A stretch of DNA of 64,000 bases, taken from assembly GCF_026571515.1 (NCBI RefSeq), contig NW_026859735.1, positions 62,001-126,000 of the forward strand, written 5' to 3'. Source of the DNA: Ruditapes philippinarum (taxonomy: Eukaryota). Below are positions 315-38,543 of the stretch, piece by piece. The translations under genes and the position numbers were made by a program. The notes beneath the pieces were generated by a model. The model was not told the DNA's origin and made no database searches. It was given only the letters and a program-made list of their open reading frames with translations. The stretch's first letter is position 1. Every line of letters begins with the position of its first letter.

Positions 315-3300
315 GCGCCATGACAGGTGGAACCATGACAGGAACAGGGGGAACCATGACCGGAACAGGGGGAACCATGACCGGAACAGGGGGAACCATG
401 ACCGGAACCGGGGGAACCATGACCGGAACTGGAGGGACCGGAACTGGTGGAACTATGACAGGAACAGGCGGAACAGGAGTCGTCACCGGAACAGGAGGAA
501 CCGGTTTAGTCCCAGGAAGTGGTCACATGACAGGAACTGGCGGAACCGGTGGTGGAGGTGGTGATACTATCGCAATTTCATTCTAATTAAACTGAACCTC
601 GTCATTTATGAATATTGATATTCGAGTATATGGCAAATACTTCACCGCAAAGAATTTTATAGTTTCAGCAAACATAGTGACCGATGTGACCGATTAGATA
701 TATCTTCAAGTTTTTCATATGTTAAATCTAATTCTTGAAGTCTATAAATATTTACATTTATCGAATAATTTACTCTTGAAAATATTTTCATTTTTGGTGT
801 TATAAGATTATCTCCCTTTATATAGCATGCGCCGACAAATTACCGGATTGTGCCAGTTACGATCACTCCATTTGTGATCAAGCTAGCTACCATGACTGGG
901 TCTTCGAAAACTGTCAACATTGGTGCAATAAATGTGGAGGTAGATTGCCTATAACTTTGTCCTTGACCTTGATGGTTTATCATTTTTAAATCCATGGCAA
1001 TTATTGTAAAATCGTCATCATTTTCTTCACGTATTTTTAAATTCTAATTTCTACGAGATTAAAAATATGTACACAAAACTCTAAAATTTATTCACAACAA
1101 ATGAAAAATATCAAAGGTGATAACCAAAAACAACACTTGAGAATAACTTGTCGGATTATTTAAATTTAACAGTATCAGGTGGAATTTCGATCCCCGTAGG
1201 AACCGGAACTGGAACAGGAACAGGTATGAAACCCGTCAAAACACGTACAATATCCTGCATTGGACAGCTTTTTATCGCTTTTAACATGGATGGCAAACAG
1301 TTTGGACGGAACTTTTAGCTTGTATATCTGCAGCTATATACTTAGAGTTTTGCCAACACTGAGCTTTTAATAAATAAGGAAACCCTTTAGCTGATACTTT
1401 GATGTCGCCAAAATGCTTCAAGATGCTTCTTCCGGTTTTTAAAAATGCTTCTGCTAACACCACTTCTTCGGCGACAACCTAGTTCCACAAGAAATTCTGT
1501 CTCCCGCAGACTCGACATTGCTTGTAATAAAGCTTTATTTGTGTCCATGGGCTTTGAAGCTTCAGCAACTGTTAACAAACATATAAACTTTCCTTCAAGC
1601 TGAACAAACCTTTCTTTTTATATTCCAGCTTATTTCCAATGTATGGTGTTTGTTGGAAATGTTTAATGAAACGTGCTTTATTGATGCAGTTTTTATTTTT
1701 ATATGTGTACATCACGAAACGTCGACTCGCCTTTTAATTGAATATGTCTTCATCTTGAAATAACGTATGTTTTATCGTAAAGCTTTGTTTACCGGAAGTT
1801 GATTTGTTCAGAATAACATTTTTGCTTTGTGAGTTATGCTACTGGTTATACATCTTTTTCAATGTCCCTCCTGATGATTAAAAAGTGTAACTTTACGCTA
1901 TTTGCAAGAACAGATGTAAGCGTCAACTTGTTCACGTTTTTTTTTTCTTTTTGGATCAGGATAGCTTATGTGCAATGCTGTTAGCCCGTCTTTTCTTACT
2001 TTCGTTTTGCTTTGAGCAATGATTAATCAATTAATGGACAAGTAATTCATTTACTTGAGATATACTTTTTTTCGCTTTCTTTTTATGAAATTAACGGGTT
2101 TTAATTATCTTGAATGCAGAATTTGTAGTGCGTCATATTATCATTATGAAAATTGTTTCACTTTTAAAAGTAACATTTATTTAAAGAACAGATTGAAATA
2201 ACCACATGCAGACAATTTAATATAAAATTAAAGATTTTTTTTTCAAAAGAAATCGGCACAAATGCCTGAGACAGTTTAAATAAGTTGATATTTAACTGTT
2301 CAATATTGCTATAATTATTTACGTGTGATTGATTTCCGGTTGTCCAGATGAAAGTGCAATTCGGAAGTCTTCGTAACTTTTCGTAGACTTAGATAATCTT
2401 TTTAGTTAGAAAAATTGTGGTGTCACTTGGCTTTATCGATGCTCGTAAGGTATCGGTATGACACATAGAAAAATGCGGCATATACTGAGCTTTTACAAAA
2501 ATGTCATGAATATATAAACAATATTTTTGTCGCTTGGTACATAGGAACTGGAGGCACTATGACCGGAGGAACCGGAACAATGACAGGCGGTACTGGAACT
2601 ATGACAGGAGGAACTATGACTGGTGAGTAACTATAGCAACGTGATTACAGTTGTCGTCAGGCACTTTTGAATGTTCATTGTACAGAGAACAAATAATATT
2701 GTTTCTTTAAAGTATAAAACCCATTAATATACAGTAAACTCCCGATATGACGAACCCTTATAGATGTTCAAATTTTGTTACAATGATCCGATTTTTTTCT
2801 AAGTCTTACAGTATAACCCTATTAATATACAGTTTATGCCCGATATTACGAAATCTAAGAAATATTCTAAATCTTGTTCCAAAGATCAGGAGTATGCTGT
2901 AATAACATGGTGATCTGTTACCAAAGAACTAAATTGATATAACAAACATAATTGATTCTAGCTTAAGATAGAAACGCAATTTGTAGGCCGCAGCTTTATA
3001 TTCTGATCTCCCTGGACATAAAATACATAAAATCTTTACAGCAACGATTTAAGATTTTTTTGGTTCAATTACTTTTTATTCTTGATATTTTTCTTTGTTC
3101 TGAATATATTTTATTTAATCATCCCGTAATTACCAGTCATTTTGTTTTATTCTATTCTTGTTCTTATTTATTAAAGGCACTTGCGCCGACAAACTGCCCA
3201 ACTGCGCAGCTTACACACAGGCCGTGTGTACAAGCAAAGATTACGCTACCTGGGTGTTAAACAACTGTGCACATTATTGCAACAAATGCGGTGAGAATTT

Positions 3301-12300: not shown

Positions 12301-14503
12301 GTCTACAGTATGCGCTTCACTGACCATTCTGAATAAAACTAAATGATGCAAATGTTTCGCTTAGCATTCAACAACTCCGAAAGTATCAAAAACAGGCAAT
12401 TTCCAACAATAACTCTGTTTCGAAATCATGCAAATGAATAAGCAATCTTTAAAAAAAAATTAAGCTTGAACAAAATTTGTCAGTTCTAGAGGCCATTTCA
12501 CTTTTTGACAGCGCAACTTTATGGTAGTAGCTTTATATTGAAACCCATATGATAGAGGGATTTTATTAGTATTCATATTATGAAAGTTCTCGTTAATTAT
12601 AGGGCAAAAGGTTGTCAACGTTAGCAAATTATTCACTATTCAAAGTTCAAAAAAATATTTTTTCCATAGGTTGCAGTGACACCATCGCAAACTGTGCCGC
12701 TTACGACCCGTCCATTTGTACCAGCACCGACTACAAACAATGGGCATCGCAGAACTGTGCTGGCACATGCCATTTGTGCTGTAAGTAATTAATCAATAAG
12801 GTGTACACATGGAAGATTCTCAAAGTTTGGATGTTGCTTTTCGTCATGATCGGATTTATGTATGCAAAGAGAATAAAATGAAGCAAAAAACGTATCATAA
12901 CAAATTTTCCGTATTGAAACAGTGTATTTTGTTTAAATAAAACATCATTTAGCTGCGGAAAATTCTGTTTTTAATTTTAGCACTTCTATCTAACAAATCT
13001 AGAAATCCTTGCACATGTGTTCCTATTTTTATAGATAAAAAATTATCGGACCGAACTTGTTTTATTACAGCAAGTCAAACTTCCGGAGGTTCAATGACTG
13101 GTACCGTTACTGGAACTGGCGGTGGTGGTGTTATCACAGGAACAGGAACCATGACTGGAACCGGAACTGGAACTGGTGGCACCATGACAGGATCAGGTTC
13201 CGGTAAGCAATATTTTGTTATTTATTCCATGTTTTATTTCTAAGTACTTTAAACTTTATATTGCGTGCGTCCGTTCACGAGTACTGAAATATTTTTAAAA
13301 TTAGGCGGGCTTAAAATACTTTGTTCAATGAAATGTATTAATTTAATAACAATTTCTTTGACGAATGGAAATGCAAGTAAACTTCGTCATTTTGATTGAC
13401 TAATGAATACTAGGCTAAACGATGAATGCCAAGTATTGAATACGGATACAATTTCGTATTTCTTCGAAATTACAGTATTTTACCAGGAATCTTATGGATA
13501 CATTACATTATATGTAATTGTTTATCCTTACTTAGGCTGTGTTTATGCCGGACATCTGTATACACAAGGTCAATCTTGGAAGGACGGTTGTAAATTCAGA
13601 TGCCAGTGTGTAGAAGGAGCAACCGGAAAATACCAATGCACACAACTGTAAGCCTTTTCTTAGGATTTATAAGTCACGACAGTATTGGAGCAGTATCTCT
13701 GGACGCTTGCAGAAATCATGATCACAAAATAGAAAAATATAGCTTTTTCGCCGATTCTTACACTTTTCATTCATTACTGTTTAAAAATATGTGTGAACAG
13801 ATGCATTAGACGTCTTAAACAGAATATCGGCAGGTAAAAAAGGGGAGATTTAAACATTTAACCTTGTCCGGTTTATACCGGAATACGGTATTTAGAGTTT
13901 TGCTCCAACACTTTTTAGTCTTTTTAACATTAATTATTTCCTTCAATATTGAAGATAATCATAGCAATTCTGTGATGACTGGTGAGTTTTCATCTGGAAA
14001 GAAGAAGTTCGTTATTGAAAAAACAGAAACATATAACCCTAACCCTAACCCGAGAAAGGAGAAAAACAATTATCTAGCATGAGAAAATTTTCAAAGCCTT
14101 ACATTTTTGGGGGTGACAATGAGTACATTTAACCTCTGCAGAGCAATGCCATTTAGGAGAAAATAATCTAGTTGTTGCTGAAATGTGTTCCTCTACAGAA
14201 TGTTAATTTCAATGGGAAACCTAACTTGGGAAAAATTAATACTGTGCACAGTGTTGTATAGGGATGGTTGGTCGGTCTACAAAACGCTGCTTTACAAAGG
14301 TTACGTGTGTATAAGGTCTATAAAGCCTAATCTCGTTTTTTTGTACACTTGTTGAATATGTTGATATATTTTGCAGGTGTGTACAATGGCAGCTTCCACA
14401 ACAGTGTCACATGAACCCACCTGCACCAGGCAAATGTTGCCAGACCCCATCTTGTCCAGCTGGCTTTGACATCAAGTATCCAGTAGGATATACTGAAGAG
14501 TAG
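315..14503 (+). CDS. Multi-ShKT + Gly/Thr/Met-repeat + C-terminal VWC protein, 5'-partial (14 exons: 315-560, 826-939, 1173-1223, 2545-2622, 3177-3290, 6049-6153, 7009-7140, 10589-10666, 10797-10919, 11289-11417, 12670-12780, 13071-13202, 13536-13647, 14377-14503)
   Basis: Every exon is bounded by AG/GT and they join in frame. Five exons encode six-Cys ShKT modules C-x6-C-x7/9-C-x12-C-x3-C-x2-C (e.g. CADKLPDCASYDHSICDQASYHDWVFENCQHWCNKC) and seven encode (GTMTGG)-type linkers. The last two encode a 10-Cys VWC domain (CVYAGHLYTQGQSWKDGCKFRCQC...GKCCQTPSC), with stop TAG at 14501-14503. The start codon and signal peptide lie upstream of the window. The donor of the first exon (560 vs 557) is slightly ambiguous. 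Confidence 0.9.
1230..1600 (-). pseudogene. Possible decayed transposon accessory ORF fragment (SWIM-finger-like, Kolobok/ISL2EU type) in an intron
   Basis: Broken minus-strand frames read ...ILKHFGDIKVSAKG...KYIAADIQA / KLFAIHVKSDKKLSNAGYCTC, resembling the lead-in to a SWIM C-x-C motif. Frameshifted; the rest of the motif is missing. Confidence 0.3.
3409..5319. mobile_element. Non-autonomous foldback DNA transposon with ~650-bp terminal inverted repeats (CCGTA termini, Tc1/pogo-like)
   Basis: 3409-4081 is the reverse complement of 4671-5319 at high identity (ccgtattaccggcg...cagtgatggcagatcactgcag / ...cgccggtaatacgg). Spacer ~590 bp. Right flank TA, left flank CA. No transposase. Confidence 0.85.
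7703..9990. repeat. 32-bp minisatellite (~70 copies), consensus cacttcttacaccctgaacattactcactgag
   Basis: Directly visible tandem array in the intron between ShKT exon 7009-7140 and linker exon 10589-10666. Period 32 (e.g. unit starts at 9131 and 9163). Confidence 0.97.
11975..12152. repeat. ~100-bp-period direct duplication (acacgtgtagtct.tagc.gggcaag.caaa.ccc...ttgcgg...ctttgacttccccgtat), probably a transposon end
   Basis: Two diverged GC-rich copies near 11981-12047 and 12081-12152. Confidence 0.55.
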
Positions 14504-16175
14504 AATCGAATTGTTTGAAATGTTATGGAATTAAGAAATTTAAAAAAAAATGATAAAAAATCAATGTTTGTATTGTTATATTTATATATACCATATATAT
14601 AGCACTAATTACCTCTTTAAAAAAATACACCACAAGGCATTTACTTACTTTAACATTACCCCATGACGTATGACGCTCGGGCAGCCTACCAGGACAGTGG
14701 TCATACAAAGCCTTTGGGTGAGATTATAGTTGTTTTAGTGAAGTTGTCGTATGATATATGTGCATGGTTAGCACGGAATGGTTTTCATATTGATGGTTTT
14801 CGATCACGAGACATATAATGAAATTACCACAGACCTAAAATATATCACTTCTCATTTAATATACTTTGTAAAAATTTTATGGTCTATTGTCCTGTCAGTC
14901 AACAATTGTCTTAATATACAGGCATCATAGCCATAGAATTGAACAATTTTAGATGGTCATTAACTTCATAGTGTCTGTGGCATTTGTAGGTAAAAATAAA
15001 TTAACTTGTAGGAAAAGAATATTCTAAACGGAGAAAATACTTTGTTTTGACCCCAGATGACCCACATTCGAACTTGAGCATGACTCTTCTAACCCATTTC
15101 ACGGATATTTGAACCGAAAACGTTCGCTTTAGAGTGTAAACAAAGTTTTTCCATATTTGGGCTGTGTGACATAGATTTAACTCCAGGAAGCTGCTGGAAA
15201 TCACCAAAACAACCTATCTGACAAATTGTCAGGATGTTTGTGCTGTGCCCAGATAAACCATATTTAAACTAAAGCTAGAAGTAATCTTAACAACCTTTCT
15301 GGCCAGTTTCCAGGATATTTGGATCGATACAGTTCCGCCACGCTTTTCCATATTTACGCTGTGTAACCCAGTTTTTGACTCAAGGTCATGACCTTGAAAT
15401 CATTTAAACAATCTTTCTGACAAATGTTAAGGATATTGGTGCTAAATGTTTTTCTCTAGGTTGTAAAACAATGTGGTTGGTTTTTTTCTCCATAATTGGA
15501 CTGTGTGGCCCAGTTTTTGGTCCCAGATAATCCATATTCGATCTTGAGCTAAAAAGTAACTAAACTACCTTTCTGACTAACTTCCAGGTTATTTGGACCG
15601 AAACAGTAGCAACTAGAGTATTAACAAGTTCTTTCTTCTTCTTCTTTTTCTTTTTTTTTAAGGTGAGATAAAAAAAATGACCTTGAATGTCAGTCATTTA
15701 TGAATGCGGGTCAAGTTCAGTCTCAACTTGAAGGTCTTGTCCAAGGAGTTGTTGTGTTTTACAGTACTCCATTAAGAAAAAACGCAATTGGGACCAAAAC
15801 TGCCACATTATATTCATCTCCCCAACTCCCTTAAAAATTGATTTTGTTAAACTAATTTTGTATACAGGGACATATAAAAAGAACCAATGGCTGTATTGAA
15901 TGTAAACACTTACATATACCAATCATAGTGACATTACTATGTCATTGATTGTTTAGCAGTTAATTGTCTTGTTTTTTTGTCAAGTACACATGTATAATAT
16001 ATACGTTTCAAACTTCTTTATTTCTATAGTTCATTGTAATAACATAATCATTGCACTTCTCATTGTAATAAAATTTAATGGTTATAAATGTGGGTAAAAA
16101 CATTTAAATATGTTCTTCTGCTCAATAAATATTTAACTGAAATTGTTAATTTAAATTTAATATTGGCAACAAGTA

Positions 16176-16862
16176 TACGAGAAATGATCAAAAAGTTCTC
16201 GGCCTGATATTCTTCTAGCCACTACACTGACATTTACACACGATGCGTCGATACCGATATCTTATTAAAGATTACTGACCGAGCTACACACGGTTTTACA
16301 CAGATTAAGTAACATAAAACACACTTTAGTCAGTAAAGGGGTGTATCATTTAGACTAAATGGAGAAAGTTGAAATTAGAGCCGAAATTAAGTTTTGTAAG
16401 AATGGGATGCCCCCCCCCCTCCCCCAAAGGAAATCCATGAAGGCTTCATGGATACACTTGGGAAGGAGTCCCCTTCCTATAGCACTGTAAAAAAATAGTT
16501 GCTGAATTTTAGAGGGGCGGAGAGAGCATTGGAGATGATCAGCGGCCTGAGCGGCCACCATGGCAACGATGAAACTGCCGAAGCTGTGCACGATCTGGTC
16601 ATGTGCGACAGAAGGCCAGACCTGCAAAGCATTGCTAGGGAAGTGGGTATAAGCTTTGGTTCAGTTCAGGCAATTCTGATGTCTATGGCACCTCAAAGGT
16701 TTCCGCTAGATTGGGTCCCCAGACAGTTGACTGACGACCAGAAACGGACCGGGGTTGACATTTCAAAACATCTTTTGTCTCGCTACAAGGATGAACCTGA
16801 TTTTATCTACCGGATCGTAACTCAATACGAAACATGGGTCCATCACTTCGATCCAGAATCCA
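16176..16862 (+). mobile_element. Truncated, frameshifted mariner transposon remnant
   Basis: TA followed by a mariner-like TIR (tacgagaaatgatcaaaaagttctcggcctga at 16176). ATG at 16359 gives MEKVEIRAEIKF, then after frameshifts KEIHEGFMDTLGKESPSYSTVKK*, IAREVGISFGSVQAIL (HTH), WVPRQLT (mariner WVPHEL-type motif) and IVTQYETWVHHFDPES (start of the DDD domain, catalytic D altered). 3' half and right TIR are absent. Confidence 0.9.
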
Positions 16863-17284
16863 TACATCTCTAAATGATTTCAGCGAAAATAAGGCAAATT
16901 AAAAGAACCACTGATCTTAAAAATGCTTCCTCTTTCCAGAAATGATAATTTGTAAGAGTTATCAACGTCCCCTACCTAAGGGAAGTTTTACATGAAGCAC
17001 AAACTTGAGGTATGGATCTGGACTTTCAGTGCACAATTTTGATCAATGCTAGGTCTGCATATGCAAGTAACAATAAATTCATTAAAGAAATATAATGAAA
17101 TAACCCCTGTGTATGTGTCAACAGAAATACATTTGTATAGTTATCACTATTTCAAAGTCAAAAAATGAGACAAATACAAAATGGATTAAACTGGGTATAT
17201 TTTCGTGTCCAGTCCTCAATCAAGTTATGTGGGCAATTCACCAAAGCATTCTTTTTGCATGGACTTGACTTGGCATCATACCCT

Positions 17285-24400: not shown

Positions 24401-25964
24401 TTGAACATCCATTAAGAAAACTTGCCCAAAACTATACATTTGTTTAACTAAATTCTGGCAAAGTCTATCACTTTAAGTAAGGTTTAAAATTTCACAGTAT
24501 GACAAATAACAATTAGCTACTTTAAACATGAACATGTGACCATCTCTGTAACAAGAACAAACTATGTCATTAGATGACAACAACACGGTTCACACAGCAG
24601 CTCTCCCATTCAGTATGTTTCATTCCTGAAAGACTATTTTCATGTGGTTGCACTAAATAGCATTGTAAGAACACAAAATTTCATTTGATACATGACAATC
24701 ATCTACTTTTGTCTTGCACAAGCTTCTATGAATATTGACTCGTGATTTCAATTTGAATTTGGGTGACAAGCATTCCTCACTTTTGAGATTAAGTCATGTG
24801 ATATACTAAGACACGTATTACATTCTTGCAAAAGGTTTATGCAATGTTAACACCACCTTAATTTAATTAAACAAGCTATCTTTATCAAACCTTGCATCTC
24901 AGAAAAATCACATACAAGTAACGGGGCACTCAGAATTAGGGCCCCGAATTCAACTTCCTTAAGAATGCCACACCTGGTCAAGCTTTTAAGTTCAAAGAAA
25001 GGTACAGAGTCAAATAGTAATTACCATGTATATGATGGCTATATGAAGTTTACTGTGCAAGACAAAAATCGACTACCTCTTAACAAAGAAAAACAAAAAG
25101 ACTATAACACACTCTGCTTAATAAGGAACAAAAGCTTTGAAACAGTCAGTACTTAGTACATGACAAATTCATTCCCACAAATACTATGAATTCAACAAAA
25201 CAGCTAAAACAAAACCCACAAACAGATGTGCCTATTCTATCTAATAAGGGTACAACAACAACAAATTCTAAAATGTAATAAATTGTAAGTATTAACTACC
25301 CATGCTGAATTGAATTCATAGTATTTGTTCTCTATTTACACGCATTTCCAGGGCTCACAATACTGCAATATTAAGCCCATTCCAGTCATATAACTTTCCT
25401 AATTCATTTTGGCTCTTATTAAAATACTTGCCAGTAATAAACAGAATGTGACCCCTGGAATTTTAAGTACCTGAACTGAAACTGTATTATCATGAATAAT
25501 TAACCTTTTCAACGCTATATATCTTAAATGGAATTTTGCATCTTTCAAATCTGGACCAAACCATTTATCATTTTCATAGAAAAGTTCAAAATATTCACTG
25601 ACTGGATAGCAAACAATGCAGACCATGATCAGATGTTGTGGATGTTCAGGCTGACCTTGGTCTGCACTGGTTGCATGGCTCTGACAGCAACCTTAAGGTT
25701 GAAAGTGACAAGTTAAATAGGTAAATCAGTAAATTCAAGACTAGAAAACTGATTTAAAAAGATTTTTCTTACAAATTACAGGTTTCAAGCATTTAAAACA
25801 CACACTTTGTCTACATCTGAAATATCTATGACCGAGCAATACCCATTTGACCAACTTGGAAGACTAGCATCTAACATTATACATAGAGGTAAAATCAAAA
25901 GAGTATGATTTTTTTTTCTAGTTTCAGTTCAGTTACCTCTTTCACCCATGCATGAACACCTTTA

Positions 25965-28900
25965 TTAGCTCCACCCCTGCTGCTGTCTGTTGGAAGCACT
26001 CCAACCAGCGTAACTCCCAGGCTGAGGCTCAGTCGCATGATGTCCACCCCATCCCCAGGCTGTACTGGTCTGTGGTGCAGCGTAAACATGACCTGCAGTT
26101 TGAGGAACCCCTGCATCACCCGAGGCTACAGGCTGATGATGTTGCGGAGGCGGGCCAGGGGGAGGAGTCATATGTGCCCAGTTACCACCCTGACCCTGCA
26201 GCATGGCTTGTGCAGCTGCCATCATCGCAGAATTGAATAGGTTAATACCAACAGCATTCATATCCTGTGGTGGCATGTTTGGAGGGAAGCCCATTGGTTT
26301 TGCAATCTGGTTATTTTTGTGTGGCTGCCAAGTCCCCTGATGATTCACCAACTGTGTATAGTTACCTCCCCTTTGTTGAACAGGGCCATTTTGAACTCCT
26401 GGCTGAACCTTCTTGTCTCCAAATCGGTCTGTTCCTTTTGGTGCCGCATAACTCACATGGACACTTACACCTTTTACTATATGATCTTCCCCACAAAGAC
26501 TGTGAGCAACTTCAGGGTCCGAAAATGTGACAAACGCAAATGATCGGAATGGTTTCGGGATGAAAACGTCTACCACCTCGCCATACTGACAGAAATAATT
26601 CCTGAGATCGTCTGATGTGATATCTTCTGTACATCTAGCAATGAACACTTTACGGTTGATCATTTGGTGTGCACCTTCCTAAAATGACATTTCAAAATCA
26701 TGTTCTTGTAATTACCCAACCAAATATTGAATTTTCTATGATTCTCATATCTTATAAGGTGGTCAATCTAATAAATATTGCCTTCATATATATATATATA
26801 TATATCAGCTGACATTAGTCGTCATTACAATATATACTGTATGAGGCGGACCGGGAACAATGCAGTGGTTGGACTATGCACTGGTAAATTAAATAATTAA
26901 ATGTGACTTACTGTCATGATAAGGAATTTCACCTCTGTTTTATGATATAACATCAGTGCACCAAATATTATTAAAAGCCATTACTTCGTTCAAAGTTATT
27001 ATCTGGAAACTAGATTGAAAGACAAACCGACAAGTTTGCTGGCTAAATGACACCCCCCCCCCCCCAACAACTTTGTGGGGGGTATAATATTAAAAATATT
27101 ATAAAAACATTTTTCTATTTACAATGCCATCTGTTAACTTATATAACTGAAATGCCCCAAGCACATTCTTCATCAGAACCATGACTTAACAGCAGCTAGT
27201 TGATAAATTTAACTGACTGAACAACAGAAAGATGTTCCTATAGATAGCCTCTGCTATGGACCATGCATTTTAAACTGAACTGAAATTGAAAATTATTGGG
27301 TAAATTCCATTTTCAATTGTTGGAATATGATTTCAGAATTTCCCCTATTTCTGATTTATCTTGCAATTATTTTCCCTTCAGCAAGCAACAGGTTGTTTTG
27401 AAAACTGAAAAAGATCACTGCCTAGGAAACAATATCAGCCATAAAAGCCATTAAGATGCAACTCTCAAGAGATGCTTGTCTATGCCTACTTTCAGGAAAA
27501 AGACATTAAAAACTCAGATTGTAAGCTGGTGTACACAAAAAGTTCTAATTCCATGTTACTGTATTTTAGAATTGCAATACAATTTCATTAAATTCAAGTA
27601 CAGACAGTACAGTAACATAAGATTCTCCATGGTTTTGCTAAGGACTTGGATAATAGTTCAAGGCTCGACTTCTGTTTGTAATTCCAAGACGTGAGTGACC
27701 AAAAAATTTCAAACACATAATTATATAATTTATAAAAATGGATATTACCAAAAATCTTTTTGACACAAACTTACATTTGAGTTTGGAATGGTAACATCGC
27801 ACCATCTACCATCAATGTTGTGTCGCTGGGACATACATTTCATTTGATCTTCATACTTATGGAAACGTATAAACCCGTAGCCTTTCGATTGGCTTGTTTT
27901 TTGATCTCGTTTCACCTGAAATTGACAAATTACAAAAGAAAAATTAATATCAACTCTACATACTGTGTGCTAAAAGTAAACACCTAGTTTTCATAAGATA
28001 TGAGGTAGTAGTATTTTGTCAGTAGGAACTGTACAGTAATAAGTCTCGGTAAGTGACCAACTCCTATAACACTGAAGATATGTGTCAAGTTTCAACGATA
28101 GATTTTGAAATTTTACAGGTACAAAAGTGTAATAATATACCGTATTGTTTCTATTTATAGTCCCCCTTCTAATTAGCGCCCCCTGGGTGAAAAATGAAAA
28201 AAAAATTCTTACCTGACTTGAAAATTTTAATATCCGAAGTGTATTTAAAAAAAATAAACAGAAAAAAACTAACTGTTGTAACTTCCAAGTAACATTCAAC
28301 TTCCAGTTTGAATGCATTCATGTACGTTTTCTTAGAAGTGCAACCTTCTATTGTGTATTGATTAAATCACTGAATCAAGTTTTTTTACACACAGGTAAAC
28401 TGATGGGTGTTAGTACTAATTTAGGAAAAATCAATACTTAACAAAGTTTATCTTGGTCAGCAGACTACCGTATTGTCTACAATAATTTTGTGCTGCTTAT
28501 TTATCGTACGTGAACAAGGGGTTTATAGGACGAAAATAGTTGGGAGATTTTTTAGATATTTTTAAACATAAAATTAATTTTCATTTTATGCAAATGTGCT
28601 TCTAATTAACGCCCCCCGTTTCCGTTTTTGCAACGCCCCGGGGGCGATAAATGGAAACAATACGGTAATTCCATAGAAATCCATAGAAAGTTGCATTAAA
28701 AACCTAACAGTTGCAGAAACAATTTCAGTAAAGTAAGAAACCTTATTCAGGCTGAATAGTCAAACTAAGAACTAGTAACTTTCCACTTTTATTAGCCTTA
28801 AAGCTTAAGGTGCTTCTTTGTGCACTATTTCAGACAAACTGACAACATCTTAATACACCCAAAAACTTTCCTTTAGATAAACCGATAAACCTGATTTAGT

Positions 28901-31900
28901 GTTCCACTCAACAGCTGTGAAACATAGGGAATTTTCAATTAGAAATCTTGACCAATGGGACTGCACCCCACTTTTCCTTTAACATTTTCAAATGGTCATT
29001 TTATATTGAACATTTCGTACCTGTACAAGCAGGAGTTCACCAAACTTTGAGAAGTAATTTCTTAGGTCTTCCTCAGAACTCTTCCAAGGTAGCCCTAACA
29101 CGATGAGGTCACTACATTTCTTTTCACTGAGACTAGTCTTTAAGCTTATATCTTCGCCTACAGCTCCTTTCTTCTTGTCTGTAAATAAATCCGTGATAAA
29201 ATAAAACATTAACAAAATATGTGACTATTTACCAAACTTGTATACATATGTTCATCAGTTCAATTTCTTTGCCCCATGTGCAAAGGCATGTTTTTTGATA
29301 GAACTATCATGGATGTGAATTGTAATAGAGAAAACAGCCTGTGTGACACACAACAAACCGAAAAACCAGAGAACACTATCAAAACACCAGATTATCTTTA
29401 TCAGTGTTTTTTTTCACTTTTGGGGGAAGGGGGTCGGTGCCCTTTGGAAGGGAAATTTTAGTTGTTTACTTATTTTACGTTTTTTTTTTGCGATGGAAAA
29501 GGGGAGCAACTCTTGCAACACAAGTTTAAAATATGTCTCTTTTTCTTAATATACGGATCTAAAATATCGATGCGTCACATGTTAAACTTGTTGGGACGCC
29601 GGGAGTAGCTCCCCTTACCTACCAGAAAACGATTTGTAAACAACCTTGCTTAACAGTAACTCTTACAGGCATGAAATAAAACATTTTTCGGCAGTTAGTT
29701 GCAAAAAAATATTTATTGCAGGCAGATTAGGGCTGCCATATAGGGGGAAATAACAGTATTTCTATTATTTGTGTAACCAGATAAAACATGTTTCATTTTT
29801 TCTTGCATACTGTAATGCTATTTTTATTAGAAATTGTTTATCCAGCAAAAACCATACATTTGAATCAAGCAAGGAAAAATATCCGATTCAGTTATTGCTG
29901 GTTATAAATAAAATTCTTTACAAAATTAAGGGAAACCTTTACCTTTAATTCTTACCTTCAGCCTGACCAAATTGTAACTTTAAAAGCTTTTGACATATTT
30001 AGTGTTAGTCAGAACTTAATTATAGACAAATTATGGTAAGTTCAAACATAAACATGTTTGTTTACACCATCGAAGTACATGGTATTCAATCTATAATATT
30101 ACATCCAGGCTGTATGATTAATTAAGCAAACTATATCAATAAAATTTAACAGACTTTTGCCATTTTACTCATTGCAAAAAACAGTCTAAATTCTAATGAA
30201 AATATTATATATATATAACAGTTTTCAATGCAGTGATTTGATTACTATTTTAACCACAAAATCAAAGGGCAAATACACATGTGCGTATGCGCAAAACATT
30301 TCACATGGAGTTTAGCATCTGCTGTCACCTTAGTCCTAATTATAAGACCTATACGTAACCTATTTCATATTTATCAGTTATTAATCTGATATTTTACATT
30401 TTTCATGTTACGTTAGGTCTTAACAGATCACTGCAAAAACATGTAGCAAACAATTTGACATTAGACATCGATTTAGATCTAATGCATTTAAACAATTAAG
30501 ACAGCGTGTATTTACATTAATTTTGACCTATTTATAAACAACGCTAAAAAATAAATACCTTTTAACAAAATAATTAAACTGTCACATCCTCTCATTTATA
30601 ATTAAATTCCTTGTACAGCCGATAAACAAATGGCCGCCATACAGTGCTCGAAATCTTATTGGCTAATTCAAATGCAAGCGTTTAAATGAGTCAGAAGTTT
30701 TTAACAGAATATTTTTTTAACGAAATAATTGCTCATGCACCGTCAGGGTGTTCGAATATATTTTTTCGTTCAAAAATGTGGAATCAATCTGTAAAGCACT
30801 TTACTTAACCAGTATGGCCGATTGGCAAAACTAAATTGATGTTTTTATTTTATTTTTAATTGATAAGTTATTAAGTACATTGTTTCAGAGTTTTTGTTAA
30901 TGATTGAGCATGAAATTGAAAGAAAAGAAGATAAGCTTTTGAATAAAGCTTGAAAGGCAAGATAAAAGACATCTTTTGTTTTTTTTAAAAATGCTATGCA
31001 TTTATGAGCAATAACTATTAGACATCAGACTTGACCTACATAAAACTATAACAAGCCTGTAACGTGTAATATATTGGACTACTGTCACCTTAGCTGGCAA
31101 TTTAAGTCAAAGTCCATTCTACATGTATAAAGTAAAACCGGGGAGAAGTGCCTGCACTGCCACTATGGCGATGTTTGTTTGTTTTGGGTTTTACATCACA
31201 TCGACACAGTATAGGTCATATCGCGACGTTCCAGCTTTACTGGTGGAGGAAGACCTCAGGGTGCCCTTCCGTGCATTATTTCAGGCATGAACGGGCACCT
31301 GAGTAGAACCACCGACGTTCCGTAAGCTAGCTTGATAGCTTCCTCACATGAAAGAATCCAAAGTCCCTGTCGGGATTCGAACCCACAGCGGTGAGGGGCA
31401 AGTGGTTTGCTATGGCGATGTGTGTGTTAAAATAAGTGCAGGCTTCGACAGGTCCAAACGCCCGCTTGCATTTGCAAGTGAATATTATAGTCAGGCGAGA
31501 ACAATTGTAAGATTCCTGATCCAAATTAAATCTTTTACTTTATTTTTGTATTAAATAAATTGGCTAGACTTTAGAAATCTCTCCGCAGCTATTTTTCACA
31601 TTATAATTTTACCCAGTATTATTTCTTCAATATATATGTTCAGTGATTTTTTTTCCAATTTTCAAAACAACCTGTGGCTTTCTGAAGGGGAAAATATAGC
31701 GCGATAAATCAGAAAAGGGGGAAATCAAATTCCAACAACTGAGAGTGGAATAGTTACCCACACATTATATAAAATTTTTAATTTCAATTCAATTTATCAT
31801 GCATGGTACATAGCAGAGGCTTTAGGGATTCTAGCTGATATAATAAGTCAGATGCTGTTAAGTAATGGTTCTGGTGAAGTGCACAGGGCATAACAGGGGA

Positions 31901-32441
31901 AAATATTAGCTTTTTTAGGGGAAAATATACCTATATTTAGCTAGGGGAAACAGCCTTTATTCGGCTGTAAAATACAGGGAAAAAAATCACTGATGTTTCT
32001 CTACAAAATCACTCAATTACTTCTAGGGATATGGTTAGAGTAAGTGTTTAAGGGTAAGGGTTAGGTTTAGAAGCTAAGGGTTTGAAAAATGAAACATGGA
32101 CTTTTACTGCGAAGTGCTCCAATAAATTTAATGTTCTAATTATACAATGTGCATTATCATTTATCAACCTCTATTAATTAGTTGCAAAGTCATTGATGTA
32201 TACCTTTTGGAAAAACAACGAGGTATGTATGATTTTTCCAGCCGTTGTCTGGTGGGTGGAGCTTGTTATCACTTAGGCGTATCCCTCGGAAATTTCCAGT
32301 TTGTGGGTTTCTGTACTTCAATCCACAGGCGTTGGGAAACTGTCCGGATATTGTGCTAAGTAGAAGAGTACCATCCTCTTCACTTGGGATTTCAACAGCC
32401 TCTTCATTTTCGTCGTCTGTTACCTGAATATATTGAGGCAT
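25965..32441 (-). CDS. TARDBP: TAR DNA-binding protein 43 (TDP-43) orthologue, 416 aa; exons 32441-32204, 29178-29021, 27915-27775, 26678-25965
   Basis: N-terminal domain [46 protein letters not shown]; RRM1 ([30 protein letters not shown]); RRM2 ([36 protein letters not shown]); Q/G/P-rich tail with [12 protein letters not shown]. Exon lengths 238+158+141+714 = 1251 nt, all GT-AG and in frame. Confidence 0.97.
27140..27420 (-). mobile_element. Partial inverted copy of the 31641-31993 MITE in TARDBP intron 3
   Basis: Reverse complement reads cagtgatctttttcagttttcaaaacaacctgttgcttgctgaagggaaaat...gataaatcagaaataggggaaa, matching 31641 onward. Confidence 0.7.
28140..28665. mobile_element. Tc1/pogo-type MITE with TA target duplication in TARDBP intron 2
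   Basis: ta|ccgtattgtttctatttat ... ataaatggaaacaatacgg|ta. Subterminal ttctaatta(g/a)cgcccc motifs at both ends. Confidence 0.85.
31175..31409 (-). mobile_element. 5'-truncated tRNA-derived SINE (MESC/Meta-like core) with 12-bp TSD
   Basis: B-box ggttcgaatcc, core tcatgtgaggaagctatcaagctagcttacggaacgtcggtggttctactcaggtgcc, (aaac)n tail. TSD ctatggcgatgt at 31163-31174 and 31410-31421. Confidence 0.88.
31641..31993. mobile_element. MITE with cagtgattttttt TIRs and apparent 5-bp TSD atgtt in TARDBP intron 1
   Basis: atgtt|cagtgatttttttt ... aaaaaaaatcactg|atgtt. Confidence 0.75.
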
Positions 32442-32494
32442 TTTAGTAAAATGGCATTAAAATCTCGAAAAATATCTTGCAGGGTTTTCCCAAG

Positions 32495-32525
32495 AAATTA
32501 CTTCCGAAACAAAATGGCGACACGA
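32495..32525 (-). promoter_or_regulatory. Putative TARDBP core promoter / 5' UTR motifs (ETS and YY1)
   Basis: acttccg (ETS) at ~32500 and aaaatggcg (YY1) at 32511-32519, 60-80 bp upstream of the ATG in a locally CpG-richer patch. Confidence 0.5.
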
Positions 32526-34423
32526 CACTCTTTTAGAACGGTTCGAATACATTTACGTCGCAATGTCCGTTTCCGATTTATATTTCGTTCACCAGTCTAT
32601 CGTAATTATCGGTGTATATGTAAATTCAATTTACAGTGATAAAGCATTACCGGCAACTCGTAAAATATTTCTTTCTGTTAATTGAAAGTTTAATGTAAGA
32701 TATACTCGCTGTAATTAACAATGCAATTGCTTTTCTGGTGATTACAATCATTATTCTGTATTATATCGTAGCAAGAATGGTAAAAACCACTTCATTTTTA
32801 TACAATATACAAAATTTAGTGGTCCACTGCCTTGCACACTTGTGAACGTTTTACGTGTCGGTTTTATTGCATTTTTTTTGCAAAATGGGCTTTAAATCAT
32901 GACCGCGTATAGAGGACATCACCGTGCACTAAAAGACAGTGAACAAGCGGTGCCATGTTGCATTCAAAAATTCATATTTTAATAAAATATGTGTCCGGAC
33001 CACGGCTTCAATAGGACCTTATCAGAATTTATTATTACAGAATGTAATATAACGTTCCATGACCTTATGCAGTAGACAATCTTTAATTTTTCTGAGCTTT
33101 GAAGATATTTCAACCTTTCATACAGTGATATACCTTTGTTGACACAGAAGAGCAATGTTAAGGTTTTCTTAAGTTGATAAGGTCTTTGGTGAACTACCAT
33201 TGTTAATAATTTTAGTTTCTCAGTTTGATAGATATTATACACAAGGACAGTATCAAGTAGTAGTCCTGATTACTTGCAAAATGGACTGTAAGTAATGCAA
33301 TATAAAAATATATCCACGTGACAAACATTATCAGACTATTAATAGGTTTGGCATGCAGCGATACTTTTTTCGTTGTGATTAATTCTGCAAATAGCAGACC
33401 ACTTGGAAACACTTATAACATTTAATATACATAACAGACAGATATTTTTACATTCATAACTTTTATTTGATTCGACGGTTAACAATTATAATTTATCTAA
33501 ATCGGTTATGATCATTAGCTGCGAAAAGCATAAATACGAGGTTTTTTTTAAAAAAAAATGTATTTTAGTTTCGGAAAAAAGTCGGAAAGAACACACGAAT
33601 TTCAATACAATTGAGGTTATTTGTAATCTGCAAAATCATGAAGGCGATTTTTGATTTTCGCCAAGAAATCTAAAAGTGAGAGCTATATTTTATTCAGTTG
33701 ACCTTTTACCGAAGATTTTATATATTGTCAAAAAAAAAAATCACTATGCACATCGTATTAAAATACGTCAAGGTACCAGTTTTTCTACCTTCAAATATGC
33801 CCCTTTTTAAAAATTACGAATGAAAGGGTCCGTATTGAAAGAATGTTTTGTAAAAATATTGAGTACAATGCATATTCATGCAGTACAGCGTATGTTTTGT
33901 ACGAATTAACGTCCGAGTAAAATATCATATGTTGTCTTTTCCCCTTTCTTTTGCACGATAAACATGAATAATGTAAAACATGTCACCAGGATTTACTTGG
34001 TCACATAAAAAAGCAGCTTGTGCAAATTTACTTATAAACCGTCTTTAATGACTTGGTAGTAATTTTTTCACTTAAATTTCATAATACTCATGCTACACTA
34101 CAAACAGTTCTGTAAGTCAAACGTTGAAATCTCGTCAACATTTTATTTATTGGATGGCAAAGGCAGATTTTGGGTTGATCATTAGTTGATCTAATCGGCT
34201 ATATCATGAACCCAAAAGAACAAACGACCAACTAATTTTAAATAATTCGGATTTGGTTATAATTGTCTAGTTGTATTTTTAAATCGATTCTGAATGACAA
34301 ACATATGTTTTAATCACAAAATTATAATTGAAATAGAAAACTTTCAACAAAATAATACGTTCTGATTATAAAAAGATTACACCCTGTAAATCAAAAGTCG
34401 CATGATGGTATTTTTTTCAGTCT

Positions 34424-35410
34424 GTTTTATTTCCAAGATGATTATGAACAATCGGCGAGGTGTTCTAAACGCGATATGCCGTGACAGCGCTTGAAGTAAA
34501 AAAATGTCGTTTATTTTGTCACCGGTCAACAGAAGGTCCTACAAAACGGCCGAAAATATTTTCCCGTAAACATAAAAGACACGAAAATTTGAATTAATTG
34601 AATATTGTTAATTTTTCATCTGTGGAACTGTATTTTCTGTGATAATATCGCTACATGGAAGACTCAGATCAGTTTTATTTCCGAGATGATAGCGAATCAT
34701 TGGCGCGAAATGTCGTGACAGCACATGTTGTATAAAAATGTCGTCCGGTAAAAGTTATCGCACAGAAGGAACGAAAATATTTTCCTTTAAAAAATTAAAT
34801 TTATGTTTTGATGAATTTTTCATGAAATGTTTTTTATACAGCTAAATTAAACTTTTTTAAAAACATTTGTTTTTGCCCATTATCGACAATTTAAAAGGGG
34901 CTGTAAATTTTTTGTCCTTTCACAGTGATTTTTTCTAATCTTTTTTTTTTCCCCAAAGGAGATTATTTTGACCCACCCGGCGAGGTGCCCCAAACGAAAT
35001 TTATGCCTTTTGACAGCCCCCAAAGTAAAAAAAACGCCCGGTTAGTGTTTCGAAAAAAAAAGACAAAAAACATTTTTTTTGGACAAAAAAAAGGTGAATA
35101 TATATATTTTTTAAAATTTTTGGTTTTACGAAATTTTTTTAAAGGGGGTTCAAACATTTTTAATATTTTTGAAACATTACGATTATCGACAAATGAAAGG
35201 CAGTATAATTTTGTCCTTTCTCAGTAGATTTTTTTCAATAAATTTTATTTCCGAGATGATTATGAACCATCGACAAGGAGTTCCAAACGCGTTATGCAGT
35301 GACAGCACATGAAGTATAAAAATGTCGTTTTTTTTTCACCGGTAAACGTGATCGCACAAAACGGACGAAAATATTTTCCCTTGAACCTTAATAACACGAA
35401 AATAAGAATA
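34424..35410. repeat. Diverged ~250-300-bp tandem repeat (about 4 units)
   Basis: ttttatttcc(a/g)agatgat...gtgacagc...aaaaatgtcgt...cgaaaatattttcc recurs at ~34424, ~34673 and ~35242, with a garbled unit at ~34945. Confidence 0.7.
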
Positions 35411-38400
35411 TATTGTAAATAATAAAATTGTTTAATTTTTATCTTTGTAATTTTTTACTGTTCAGTGTCACAAATGTGTCCCTTTTCAGAATTTATATTA
35501 CATTTATTCTTAGTTTCTTTTCCCATACTAACATGTATGCCTGTATCAACGTACCATACAAACGTAACATTGGAATATCTATTGATGACTTTTTCTTTGT
35601 GATGAATAACAAGAAACGCGTTAGCTTGATACTGAACTCATTCATTCATTGCAATATACAGTGAATATCAAACAAAAAAGCACTCGCCTGAAATAACGTC
35701 AGTGTTGAAAAAATATCCGAAAACATTTGAAAACGGGCAGTATAATATATTTGTAAAGGACAGGGAATTTCTTAATGCGTGCACTAGGAAGACTAACTAA
35801 GTGCAGTTAAAATGTCATTTTAAATGATGGCCTACAATGATGGGAGTGCATACTTCATTTTTCTTCTTGCGCATCCGGTTTTAACTATTCGGGAAAAAAT
35901 CGCGCCTACCGTAAATAACGATTTGTCTATGACGCGATATTTTATAGATTTCCCGATATTTGATACAGTAAATTACTAATGTTCAGCGGACTCGGAGTGA
36001 TAGCTGCAAAAACTACGGTCTTACCTCATTTCATATTTCTTCTCCTTGTAAAAACACGTCATCGTCCCGTCATTTGGGTGACACATCAATGAGGGCTGTA
36101 ATATGCTCGCTCCTTCTAAACAAAATTTTTCATAGACATGGAATTGCAATGTTGACAAAACACGTAAATGTACTGATCTTAGTGATCTATGTACACTACT
36201 CAGCAATTTTATCCATATGGATGTAGCTGAAGTTCACTTGAATGAATTGGCGACCTCCGAAATTGAACACTTTCAAGAAATCGTCAAATTACTTGCATAT
36301 CTCGAAATGACATGCTTGCATGGCAATTACGGGACTGATAGGTAATGAATAAAAAGTCTTGGAAAGAAACAAAGCATTGGAATCCGAACCGGGCAAGGGG
36401 CGAGATACTAATATTTAAAAATTTCCGGGAGATTTGTAAAATAATACTTTAAAACTGCAAGATTTTAAAAGTAAACAGTTTTTTAGCCTTTTAAAATTTC
36501 GACAAGAACCCACCCCTGATATTGTAAATCTATGGCACTATCATAAAAACACCATCAGATTAAAGGGAATGAATTTGGGGGCAGCAGTGAGAAAAAATGT
36601 CCCCAACAAGAAAAAAAAAAAAGGGTTAAAAAAAAATCCGGGTGGGAAAACCATTTTTCCCCAAACCCTCATCCGGGGTTTGTGTTTGATTTTAAAATTT
36701 AAGCGGGTTTATTTTTTTAATTTTTTTTTTTAAACTAAAACAAACGATCACCTCAGTTTCACATCAACAGACGGACCGGCTATTGCAACAGATTTTAGAA
36801 ACTGGGTAAATACATTCTCATTAGAAGATAGGTTAAGTATGTTGGCAATAGAATCCTGGACGAAGTGATGTAAAGTCTATCCTATAATTAAAGCTTACAG
36901 CCTGTATAATTTCTCCCTATGTCAATTAGAGTATATAGAGATGAAAAGCTGAATTCTATTCTGAAAAGTTATGACAGCTCAAATGTTTAAGACTGGCCTG
37001 ACAAAGGCTTAACACTTTGTTCTCTTGCACTCTACAAGGGTTAGGTTTAATAACAAAGCGTACTTTTGATATTAACTTCACCTTATATACATCTTGCAAT
37101 TGTTTGGAGATGTCAATCCTTGGATTGATTCCTTAGGATCTGGACGTCCAACAAGATGCGGTTTTTGTGGTAAAAGCTAGCTATCACTGAAGAACGGTGA
37201 AAAAGGCACACAATCAAACAACTTGACGACGTGTGAACAATTGGGGGTCCTGCAACCTGCAGTGGCTGTAAAAGTTCATGGCTTCTTAATAAAATTAAAT
37301 TAAAATTAATTAATAAAACACTGATTTGATGACTATGAATGGTGTTACAATGGTAAAAGTACATATTATATGTATTATAAACCAATCAGGTCTTCATAAT
37401 TATAAAGGCCAGTAGAAATGGTAGACCTAACGAGGAGTAAACTTATTGTGTAAGATGTGGAAGAGCAAAACAAAATACCGAAATCGTAAGAACTATTTGT
37501 TAGCAATATAGCTCTGTTAATTGAAATGAAATTAGGTACGATCTACGCGTGTGACCAAGTTGTCATCAGAAATCATTGTGTATCCTTATAATTTTTTACG
37601 TTTCAAAAAAGACAATTTATTTACCGACAAAATTTCTATATCCCCAAAAACGAAAATTTATTTTTAAACTGATAAAATTTGATGTGAAGAAAAAAGTTAA
37701 AGAACATAACTTGACATTGATTGAGATTGGCAATTTTCTTATGATGATTAGGTAGACATGTTGATGACTCTATCATGGAAAACTTTTTAGATGATTTGAT
37801 GACAAGACAGTGATAATGAAAACTAATGAAATAACGCATGTTAAAGGAACTAACACCATTACTTTTAGTCAATCTTTTATTAAATTTACAAAGGTAAAGT
37901 ACACCAACAACTGATGTCACATGATTAGGCATGAAATGTCAATATGAAAATGAATGACTGGTGATAAAAGTACAACATTTAACAAAGAAAACAACTATAG
38001 ACTGTTCCAATGGGTTTGGCCTGGCTCTGTCCTGGAGGTTTGGCCTTGCTGTATGCACCACTACCGGTGACTGGATAACACTTTAATACTTGTTGAACAT
38101 CTATTATTAACTTATTTCATCTATTAAAGAAAAGAAATTTAAGCAGCCCTTACTTAACACTGTACATTTTGTATGCTTATGTCATTTAAATTAACATCAA
38201 CATGCAGCAAGAGAAATATTGGCTGAACAACAGAAAATTTCATTATACAATACATGTACCTTGTAAGATGTTTAATTAAACAGTAGTAAATGTTTGAATT
38301 CCTAAGGTGACAAAACACTAACCTATAACCTACCTCTCAAAATGCCTGTCTGCTTGAAAAATATATACAACTTTAAAATACATTGTTTTGTAAAAGGGAT

Positions 38401-38543
38401 ATTTAAAATATCATTAATTGGCATACTCATTACTGTATTCATTTATTAAAGCACTAACAAAAACTATAACAACATTGCTGCACAAATACTGACTTTTATC
38501 AATATAATTGTTTGATTTATTAATGAAAGCTAGAGACTGATGT

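What the first reader, a model, noticed from the sequence alone, without database searches (positions are those of the whole stretch)
315..14503. Beads-on-a-string protein: ShKT domains spaced by Met-containing Gly/Thr linkers and capped by VWC
Seen: near-strict alternation of (GTMTGG/GTGT)n linkers with five divergent ShKT domains, then one VWC. The linkers are almost only G, T and M, with no charge and little Pro. Established: ShKT domains occur in toxins and in secreted mollusc and nematode proteins; VWC occurs in matrix and mucin proteins; Gly/Met-rich sequence is typical of bivalve hinge-ligament elastomers such as abductin; Thr-rich tracts can be O-glycosylated. Inference: a secreted mucus, shell or ligament protein displaying multiple toxin-like modules on elastic or oxidant-scavenging Met tethers. 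I do not know a characterised family with this linker.
Basis: partly seen in the sequence, partly recalled or inferred. Interest (0 to 1): 0.7.

Follow-up and report, generated by a model that had tools for sequence, protein, structure and literature searches.

The report
Clam gut mucin with toxin-fold beads
This clam gene is spliced into an RNA encoding an 816-residue protein with a signal-peptide-like start and seven small toxin-fold domains strung on Gly/Thr/Met linkers; it belongs to a widespread mollusc family for which I found no study, and it likely forms digestive-tract mucus rather than shell, hinge rubber or venom.

Summary
The window holds the last 14 of 20 exons of one gene. Six more exons lie upstream and add a signal-peptide-like start, a second VWC and two more ShKT domains: SP-VWC-(linker-ShKT)x7-linker-VWC-YPxGY, 816 aa. 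It equals RefSeq XP_060605054 (Ruditapes philippinarum), auto-named 'per-hexamer repeat protein 5'. RNA contigs confirm splicing, including signal exon to VWC. Exons are very deeply covered in three contig runs and almost empty in four raw-read RNA runs (tissues not given). The layout and the TMTG linker recur in oyster, Mactra and Dreissena; long VWA-bearing relatives occur in mussel, abalone and Lingula. In a published mussel atlas, 7 of 7 VWC+ShK transcripts seen are 26-84-fold digestive-gland biased, not mantle, gill or foot. Best reading: a secreted mucin-like gut protein, like nematode PHAT and Tc-MUC proteins but with VWC caps and modular splicing. Ligament elastomer, Met antioxidant and toxin display are poorly supported. 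Tissue, glycosylation and ligand of this gene are untested.

The parts
315..557 (+). Exon 7 of 20: Gly/Thr/Met linker (aa 268-348), phase 1-1; RefSeq isoforms differ in its length or skip it
   Evidence: RNA joint from the upstream ShKT exon into it (table 5c); its donor site was not tested by RNA here
826..939 (+). Exon 8: ShKT 3 of 7, phase 1-1
   Evidence: Pfam ShK 23 bits
1173..1223 (+). Exon 9: short linker exon, phase 1-1
   Evidence: RefSeq model; not tested by RNA here
2545..2622 (+). Exon 10: GTMTG linker, phase 1-1
3177..3290 (+). Exon 11: ShKT 4
   Evidence: Pfam ShK 28.8 bits
6049..6153 (+). Exon 12: linker, 21-bp unit x4.8
7009..7140 (+). Exon 13: ShKT 5, skipped in RefSeq isoforms X5 and X6
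   Evidence: Pfam ShK 32.1 bits
10589..10666 (+). Exon 14: linker
10797..10919 (+). Exon 15: ShKT 6 (two residues longer between Cys2 and Cys3), skipped with a linker in isoform X7
   Evidence: Pfam ShK 28.5 bits; RNA joint from 10919
11289..11417 (+). Exon 16: linker
   Evidence: RNA joints and loose ends at 11289 and 11417
12670..12780 (+). Exon 17: ShKT 7
   Evidence: Pfam ShK 31.7 bits; RNA joint 12780>13071
13071..13202 (+). Exon 18: last linker
   Evidence: RNA joint 13201>13535, cut +1
13536..13647 (+). Exon 19: first half of the C-terminal VWC
   Evidence: Pfam VWC E 2e-4, below cut-off; RNA joint 13647>14377
14377..14503 (+). Exon 20, coding part: second half of VWC plus the family's YPxGY tail and stop
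   Evidence: Pro810 invariant in 58 of 58 rows, Tyr813 in at least 90%
14504..14561 (+). 3' UTR; one RNA contig carries an A-tail behind 14561 (the DNA is A-rich there, so internal priming is possible)

Best explanation
The gene is spliced into an RNA encoding an 816-residue chain of seven ShKT domains on Gly/Thr/Met linkers between two VWC domains, which is likely secreted by the digestive tract as a mucin-like component of gut mucus (stomach lining, digestive-duct mucus or crystalline style). Shown: gene structure, splicing, domain folds by profile and model, uneven presence across RNA runs, and family spread. Inferred steps: (1) the hydrophobic N-terminus is cut and a short basic propeptide is removed at Lys-Arg; (2) the Thr-rich linkers are O-glycosylated into hydrated spacers, with Met as a periodic hydrophobic residue that could make chains stick weakly together; (3) the ShKT beads, with conserved Tyr, Tyr/Phe and Trp, act as non-toxic multivalent binding modules for a gut surface, glycan or particle; (4) the terminal VWC modules join the chain to other matrix proteins, such as the family's long VWA members; (5) skipping of phase 1-1 exons varies bead number and spacing.
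For: The 20-exon model reproduces RefSeq XP_060605054 exactly with GT-AG ends. RNA contigs join the signal exon to VWC1 and the upstream exons to window exon 315, and show the 3' joints. The AlphaFold model has folded beads and pLDDT below 50 over all eight linkers; beads align to ShK-fold structures (Z 3.6-4.0 over 36-39 residues). Mussel atlas PMC5549309: ShK and VWC are both enriched in digestive gland; 7 of 7 rows with both domains, among 30 ShK rows visible, are 26-84-fold higher there than in the next tissue, up to 2964 TPM. One such row has the Pfam set VWA, VWA_CoxE, TSP1, VWC, ShK; the long relatives P0023 and P0024 each carry four of these five by Pfam and all five between them. Precedent: C. 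elegans PHAT proteins (signal, multiple ShK, Ser/Thr tracts); PHAT-5 is secreted and lines the pharyngeal lumen (PMC2563036 passages). No dibasic site lies between beads. Of 56 six-Cys domains from 15 proteins, 47 have Tyr, 50 Tyr/Phe and 51 Trp at three columns.
Against: The tissue of this gene is not shown: run tissues were not given. The mussel link is by domain annotation, not by sequence, and that file was cut (30 of the paper's 38 ShK rows seen). Glycosylation was not tested, and the linkers have little Pro, unlike classic PTS domains. VWD, C8, TIL and cystine-knot domains of gel-forming mucins were not found, and the 62 Cys can all pair within domains. The conserved aromatics may be fold core rather than a binding face; no coordinates were available. 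Contig depth is a poor measure of expression, and only 4-12% of each raw run was read.
Confidence: 0.6

Rival explanations
1. Secreted gut defence or food-handling protein: the ShKT beads bind or damage microbes, algae or their channels, and the linkers only tether them in mucus.
For: The beads share the fold of aurelin, an antimicrobial peptide, and of hookworm and filarial ShK-like peptides. The digestive-gland bias fits too. Bead sequences are divergent (39-47% identical to the last bead), and 12 places in the genome match the C-terminal module.
Against: Net charge of the beads is -4 to +1. No Lys sits at the recalled dyad position in 7 of 7 beads, though three have a Lys one residue earlier. 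No release sites lie between beads.
Confidence: 0.17
2. Basement-membrane or extracellular-matrix protein of digestive tubules, binding collagen-like partners or BMPs through its two VWC domains, not released into the lumen.
For: Nearest folds are the VWC of CCN3 and collagen IIA. Long relatives carry VWA and TSP1 domains.
Against: In the mussel table the two fibrillar collagen rows seen are low in digestive gland and high elsewhere, the opposite of the ShK+VWC rows. Levels of 600-3000 TPM in the top rows fit a turned-over secretion better (inference).
Confidence: 0.12
3. Shell, hinge-ligament or pallial mucus protein with elastic or oxidant-scavenging Met tethers.
For: Linkers are 42% Gly and 9.5% Met, low in Pro and predicted disordered, as in abductin. 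Met at T-x-T-G recurs in clam, Mactra, Dreissena, oyster, Sinanodonta and Mytilus proteins.
Against: 35% Thr, 1 Phe and no GGFGGMGGGX consensus in the linkers. Family-like transcripts are low in mantle rim, gill and foot. Relatives use Ile or Phe at that position, and the scallop protein uses a Tyr-Pro repeat with no TMT. The passages of a Perna shell proteome that name ShKT or VWC show no protein with both.
Confidence: 0.07

Closest known systems
C. elegans PHAT proteins (PMC2563036, passages read)
   Same: Signal peptide, several ShK domains separated by Ser/Thr-rich stretches, made by glands of the digestive tract; PHAT-5 is secreted and lines the pharyngeal cuticle.
   Different: PHATs have 1-4 ShK and no other domain. 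This protein has seven, two VWC caps, a YPxGY tail and regular Gly/Thr/Met repeats. Common descent beyond the ShKT domain was not tested.
Toxocara canis mucins Tc-MUC-1 to 5 (PMC9477421 and PMC7333891, passages read)
   Same: Secreted mucins that combine hydroxy-amino-acid repeats with ShKT domains; Tc-MUC-1 to 4 are reported to lack the toxin dyad.
   Different: Tc-MUC-1 has one STSSSS(P)A block and two abutting ShKT domains and is a surface-coat protein of a parasite. Here beads and linkers alternate.
Mollusc and brachiopod VWA-ShKT-VWC proteins auto-named COL6A, collagen alpha-4(VI), CCN-like, mucin-19, epidermal cell surface receptor or per-hexamer repeat protein 5
   Same: Same ShKT and VWC types and the same C-terminal VWC-YPxGY module (40-73% identity over about 79 aa); G/T linkers in several. 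This is the protein's own family.
   Different: No member found is characterised. The names come from single-domain or low-complexity matches (inference). Long members add VWA, TSP1 or C-type lectin domains.
Gel-forming mucins (MUC2/MUC5/MUC19 type)
   Same: Secreted, Cys-rich ends, Thr-rich disordered tracts interrupted by small Cys domains, VWC. Gly/Thr-rich repeats in MUC19 and submaxillary mucins are recalled, not checked.
   Different: No VWD, C8, TIL or cystine-knot Pfam match; about 77 kDa polypeptide; almost no Pro.
Insect peritrophins and intestinal mucins (recalled, not checked)
   Same: Six-Cys beads alternating with Thr-rich spacers in a gut lining.
   Different: Their beads are CBM14 chitin-binding domains. 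No CBM14 match here, and chitin binding by these ShKT domains is untested.
Abductin (PMC13052691, passages read)
   Same: Gly-rich, Met-containing, Pro-poor, random-coil bivalve sequence.
   Different: Consensus GGFGGMGGGX with only two Cys near the N-terminus; here Thr-dominated repeats and nine folded Cys domains.

Membership tests
ShKT domain (PF01549) | Profile score above Pfam cut-off with six-Cys pattern | tested here: met
   6 of 7 exons above 20.9 bits; the first, a C-C-C-CC-C variant, scores 20.1
ShK-type K+ channel toxins | Lys-aromatic functional dyad at the ShK position | tested here: inconclusive
   Register recalled, not from a call. 0 of 7 beads have Lys six residues before Cys4; 3 of 7 have Lys one residue earlier. 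PDB sequence searches gave no ShK alignment.
ShK-type K+ channel toxins | Release as small peptides from a precursor | tested here: not met
   Dibasic sites only in the propeptide and inside two domains, none in the eight linkers
ShK-type K+ channel toxins | Channel block | not testable with these tools
   needs electrophysiology
ShKT mucins (PHAT / Tc-MUC kind) | Signal peptide | tested here: met
   Hydrophobic N-terminal exon, judged by eye, spliced to the next exon in two RNA runs
ShKT mucins (PHAT / Tc-MUC kind) | Multiple ShKT domains with Ser/Thr-rich tracts | tested here: met
   7 ShKT; linkers 40% Thr+Ser
ShKT mucins (PHAT / Tc-MUC kind) | No domain other than ShK (PHAT definition) | tested here: not met
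   two VWC domains
ShKT mucins (PHAT / Tc-MUC kind) | O-glycosylation and luminal secretion | not testable with these tools
   needs glycoproteomics and localisation
Gel-forming mucins | VWD-C8-TIL assemblies and C-terminal cystine knot | tested here: not met
   Pfam at E 0.1 finds only ShK and VWC; all folded segments of the model are accounted for by these
Abductin | GGFGGMGGGX consensus, few Cys | tested here: not met
   1 Phe in 391 linker residues; 62 Cys
CCN family (auto-name of the paralogues) | IGFBP-VWC-TSP1-cystine knot order (recalled) | tested here: not met
   P0016 shows only ShK and VWC; the paralogue P0021 shows these plus a weak Fn1_2 match
Mollusc/brachiopod ShKT-VWC-YPxGY family (uncharacterised) | Shared C-terminal VWC plus YPxGY tail | tested here: met
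   8 invariant columns in 58 of 58 rows; 44 of 44 chosen proteins align to the module

The most novel reading that the evidence does not exclude
This protein family is the structural scaffold of the bivalve crystalline style and stomach lining: a VWD-free gel former in which glycosylated Gly/Thr/Met chains are cross-linked by polysaccharide- or chitin-binding ShKT beads and VWC ends, a molluscan counterpart of insect peritrophins built from a toxin fold and tuned by exon skipping.
Probability: 0.2. Interest if true: 0.65.

Novelty: new variant of a known kind. Interest (0 to 1): 0.36.

Why it matters
A 2021 paper says little is known about the identity of the proteins that build the bivalve crystalline style (PMC8561940). 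This family gives a concrete candidate hidden under misleading automatic names: transcripts with its domain pair are abundant and gut-biased in a mussel. It would also give the ShKT fold a non-toxic, possibly glycan-binding role in molluscs, and a simple low-Pro mucin repeat of interest for hydrogels. If it is only one more secreted ShKT mucin, the gain is a corrected annotation for many mollusc proteins.

Tried and rejected
Dimer prediction of the C-terminal module gave no verdict (score 0.02, mark 0.32, alignment not used); it is not used as evidence. A single-sequence fold of one ShKT bead was poor (pLDDT 62, two long helices) and was not searched. PDB sequence searches with the beads found no ShK relative. 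A tree of 44 C-terminal modules (79 columns, 24 of 41 inner branches open) did not resolve orthology, so I write 'same architecture', not 'orthologue'; only the short clam paralogues grouped firmly with Mercenaria proteins (99/99). A beta-solenoid or ice-binding reading of the TxT repeats found no support in the model (linker pLDDT 30-40), though a low score cannot exclude order in assemblies. Glycosaminoglycan attachment is unlikely: Ser-Gly pairs exist but no acidic residue flanks them (rule recalled). The shipworm style supplement lists only CAZymes, so membership of its 'mucin', 'collagen' or 'matrilin' classes could not be checked. Mackenzie and Marshall 2014 and Bailey and Worboys 1960 on style proteins were not held; I saw only their references, and the first may already name this protein. 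Ten literature searches found no paper on this family. Earlier scan findings: none.
Full report
OBSERVATION. Five exons each pass Pfam's ShK cut-off; the six-Cys pattern occurs 5 times against 0 in 300 of 300 shuffles. The eight linkers of the whole protein (391 aa) are 42.5% Gly, 35.3% Thr, 9.5% Met and 4.6% Ser, with no Lys, Arg, Asp or Glu and two Pro; 33 of 37 Met sit in TMT and all 37 precede Thr. Gly and Thr codons are mixed across repeat copies, which fits selection on the protein rather than a pure DNA satellite (inference).

THE WHOLE GENE. The window is G000:C8222:62001-126000. Upstream stretches hold six more exons: a hydrophobic N-terminus with a basic propeptide ending in Lys-Arg, a VWC over two exons, and two ShKT exons with a linker between. 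A search with the C-terminal piece returned 14 proteins of 53 candidates. The top two were 100% identical and named 'putative per-hexamer repeat protein 5' of Ruditapes philippinarum, on a contig of the same length. Twenty GT-AG exons reproduce isoform X1 (XP_060605054, 816 aa) exactly, and every exon from 4 to 18 is phase 1-1. The other RefSeq isoforms shorten linkers or drop a bead, with or without its linker; these are database models that I did not confirm.

EXPRESSION. In RNA contigs of X2 and X7 the tail of the signal exon abuts VWC1, and joints link the upstream exons in order; in X2 the last upstream exon joins window exon 315. X2 and X5 show the 3' joints and one A-tailed contig. Exons 14 and 16 end in the same letters, so joints into 10797 and 12670 are ambiguous between them. 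Exon bins reach 10^4-10^5 summed depth while most intron bins stay under a few hundred. In four raw RNA runs (X21-X24, 4-12% of each read) bins holding only exon and unique intron stay at about 0-3, and the deep bins are intronic repeats. The tool warns that contig depth measures expression poorly, and tissues are not given. I conclude only that the spliced RNA exists and is unevenly present.

FAMILY. HMMER on the 50%-representative library gave 655 hits at E 0.001 (150 listed). Of 30 proteins looked up, all named ones are molluscs or Lingula. SP-VWC-(linker-ShKT)n-VWC-YPxGY recurs in Mactra and Crassostrea gigas; Dreissena and Pecten records show the same beads, linkers and tail with a less clear N-terminus. 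TMT counts are 26 in Mactra, 16 in Dreissena, 13 in oyster, 10 in Sinanodonta, 4 in Mytilus and 0 in Pecten, which uses a Tyr-Pro repeat. Long forms add VWA, TSP1 or lectin domains. The clam genome has 12 places matching the last exon, 11 at E below 1e-5, four on this contig. The ESM Atlas puts the protein by unnamed or ShK/VWC mollusc clusters. The tree did not resolve orthology.

STRUCTURE. AlphaFold with 12 sequences gives folded beads and ends, and pLDDT below 50 over every linker, pTM 0.28. The ends match CCN3 and collagen IIA VWC; beads align with Acan1, Nak1, a Brugia ShK-like peptide, aurelin and the MMP23 domain (Z 3.1-4.0, modest scores for short domains). Three aromatic columns are conserved over 56 domains. 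The first bead has a conserved variant Cys pattern (adjacent Cys4-Cys5, no terminal pair) found in 8 other proteins of those held; its bonding is unknown.

WHERE IT WORKS. The best clue is outside the clam. In the Mytilisepta virgata atlas (PMC5549309; main-text passages and supplementary file 1, which was cut), ShK and VWC are among the top enriched domains of the digestive gland. Of 30 ShK rows visible, 7 also carry VWC, and all 7 are 26-84-fold higher in digestive gland than in muscle, gill, mantle rim or foot. The link to this family is by domain set only. A VWA plus peritrophin-A transcript has the same bias, so a chitin-associated secreted matrix in that tissue is plausible (inference). 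The shipworm style proteome is 22% 'mucin' and 11% 'collagen' (PMC8561940); whether these are family members could not be checked.

MECHANISM. Most likely a secreted mucin-like gut protein (0.6): glycosylated flexible spacers, multivalent non-toxic beads and VWC ends that join partners. Gene structure, splicing and predicted folds are shown; secretion, glycosylation, ligand and network formation are inferred. Rivals: gut defence (0.17), tubule matrix (0.12), shell or ligament elastomer or antioxidant (0.07). Against my reading: no VWD or cystine knot, an even Cys count, little Pro, and no tissue data for this gene.

COMPARISON AND NOVELTY. It looks built like the nematode ShKT mucins (PHAT, PMC2563036; Tc-MUC, PMC9477421 and PMC7333891; passages only). 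It is not a PHAT by definition, and it fails the tested features of gel-forming mucins, abductin and CCN proteins. The gene is already modelled in RefSeq, but ten searches of the held library found no study of the family; subscription papers on style proteins were not available. Other papers seen: PMC6641155, PMC4460706, PMC4203926, PMC13052691 and PMC12571646 as passages only. Verdict: real, a new variant of a known kind, interest 0.36; 0.65 if it proves to be the style scaffold.

Noticed in passing
L004:3100-7252 and L003:96-6425 (contig 25105-29252 and 32096-38425, + strand): Two short tandem paralogues upstream: signal, KR-FILSF propeptide end, two ShKT with Gly/Ser/Pro linkers, VWC-YPxGY; RefSeq calls them CCN family member 3-like.
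   Followed up: partly
L006:1407-7177 (contig 3407-9177, - strand): Near-identical inverted copy of the first paralogue whose first ShKT exon loses frame; RefSeq gives a 96-aa fragment. Recent duplication or assembly artefact.
   Followed up: partly
L002:9833-9874 (contig 51833-51874): Possible 42-nt phase 1-1 mini-exon with a Phe-Ile-Leu motif like the paralogues' mature start. It is absent from the RefSeq isoforms seen and skipped in the RNA contigs laid; may be chance.
   Followed up: partly
window 3404-5324: Fold-back element in the intron after exon 11: long inverted arms, 85-97% complementary, spanning about 3404-4081 and 4671-5324.
   Followed up: no
window 7726-9990: 32-bp minisatellite, about 71 copies, in the intron after exon 13; a similar array lies in the opposite orientation at L002:1615-2610 (seen by eye).
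   Followed up: no
L001:2097 and window linker exons: One RNA contig carries an extra 6-nt Gly-Thr unit in a linker, suggesting length polymorphism.
   Followed up: no
window 25965-26678 (-) and about 38500-58300 (-): Downstream neighbours on the other strand: an RRM exon with a Gln/Gly-rich tail that looks like TDP-43, and exons that look like NCOA5 (RRM by Pfam; names recalled). No sign of a link to the finding.
   Followed up: partly
window 16499-16873 (+): Fragment that reads like a decayed mariner transposase (recalled motif; no Pfam hit).
   Followed up: partly
P0014 (Dreissena XP_052264674): A relative joins an Ly6/uPAR-like domain to the same VWC-YPxGY end, so the C-terminal module is reused with other beads.
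   Followed up: no
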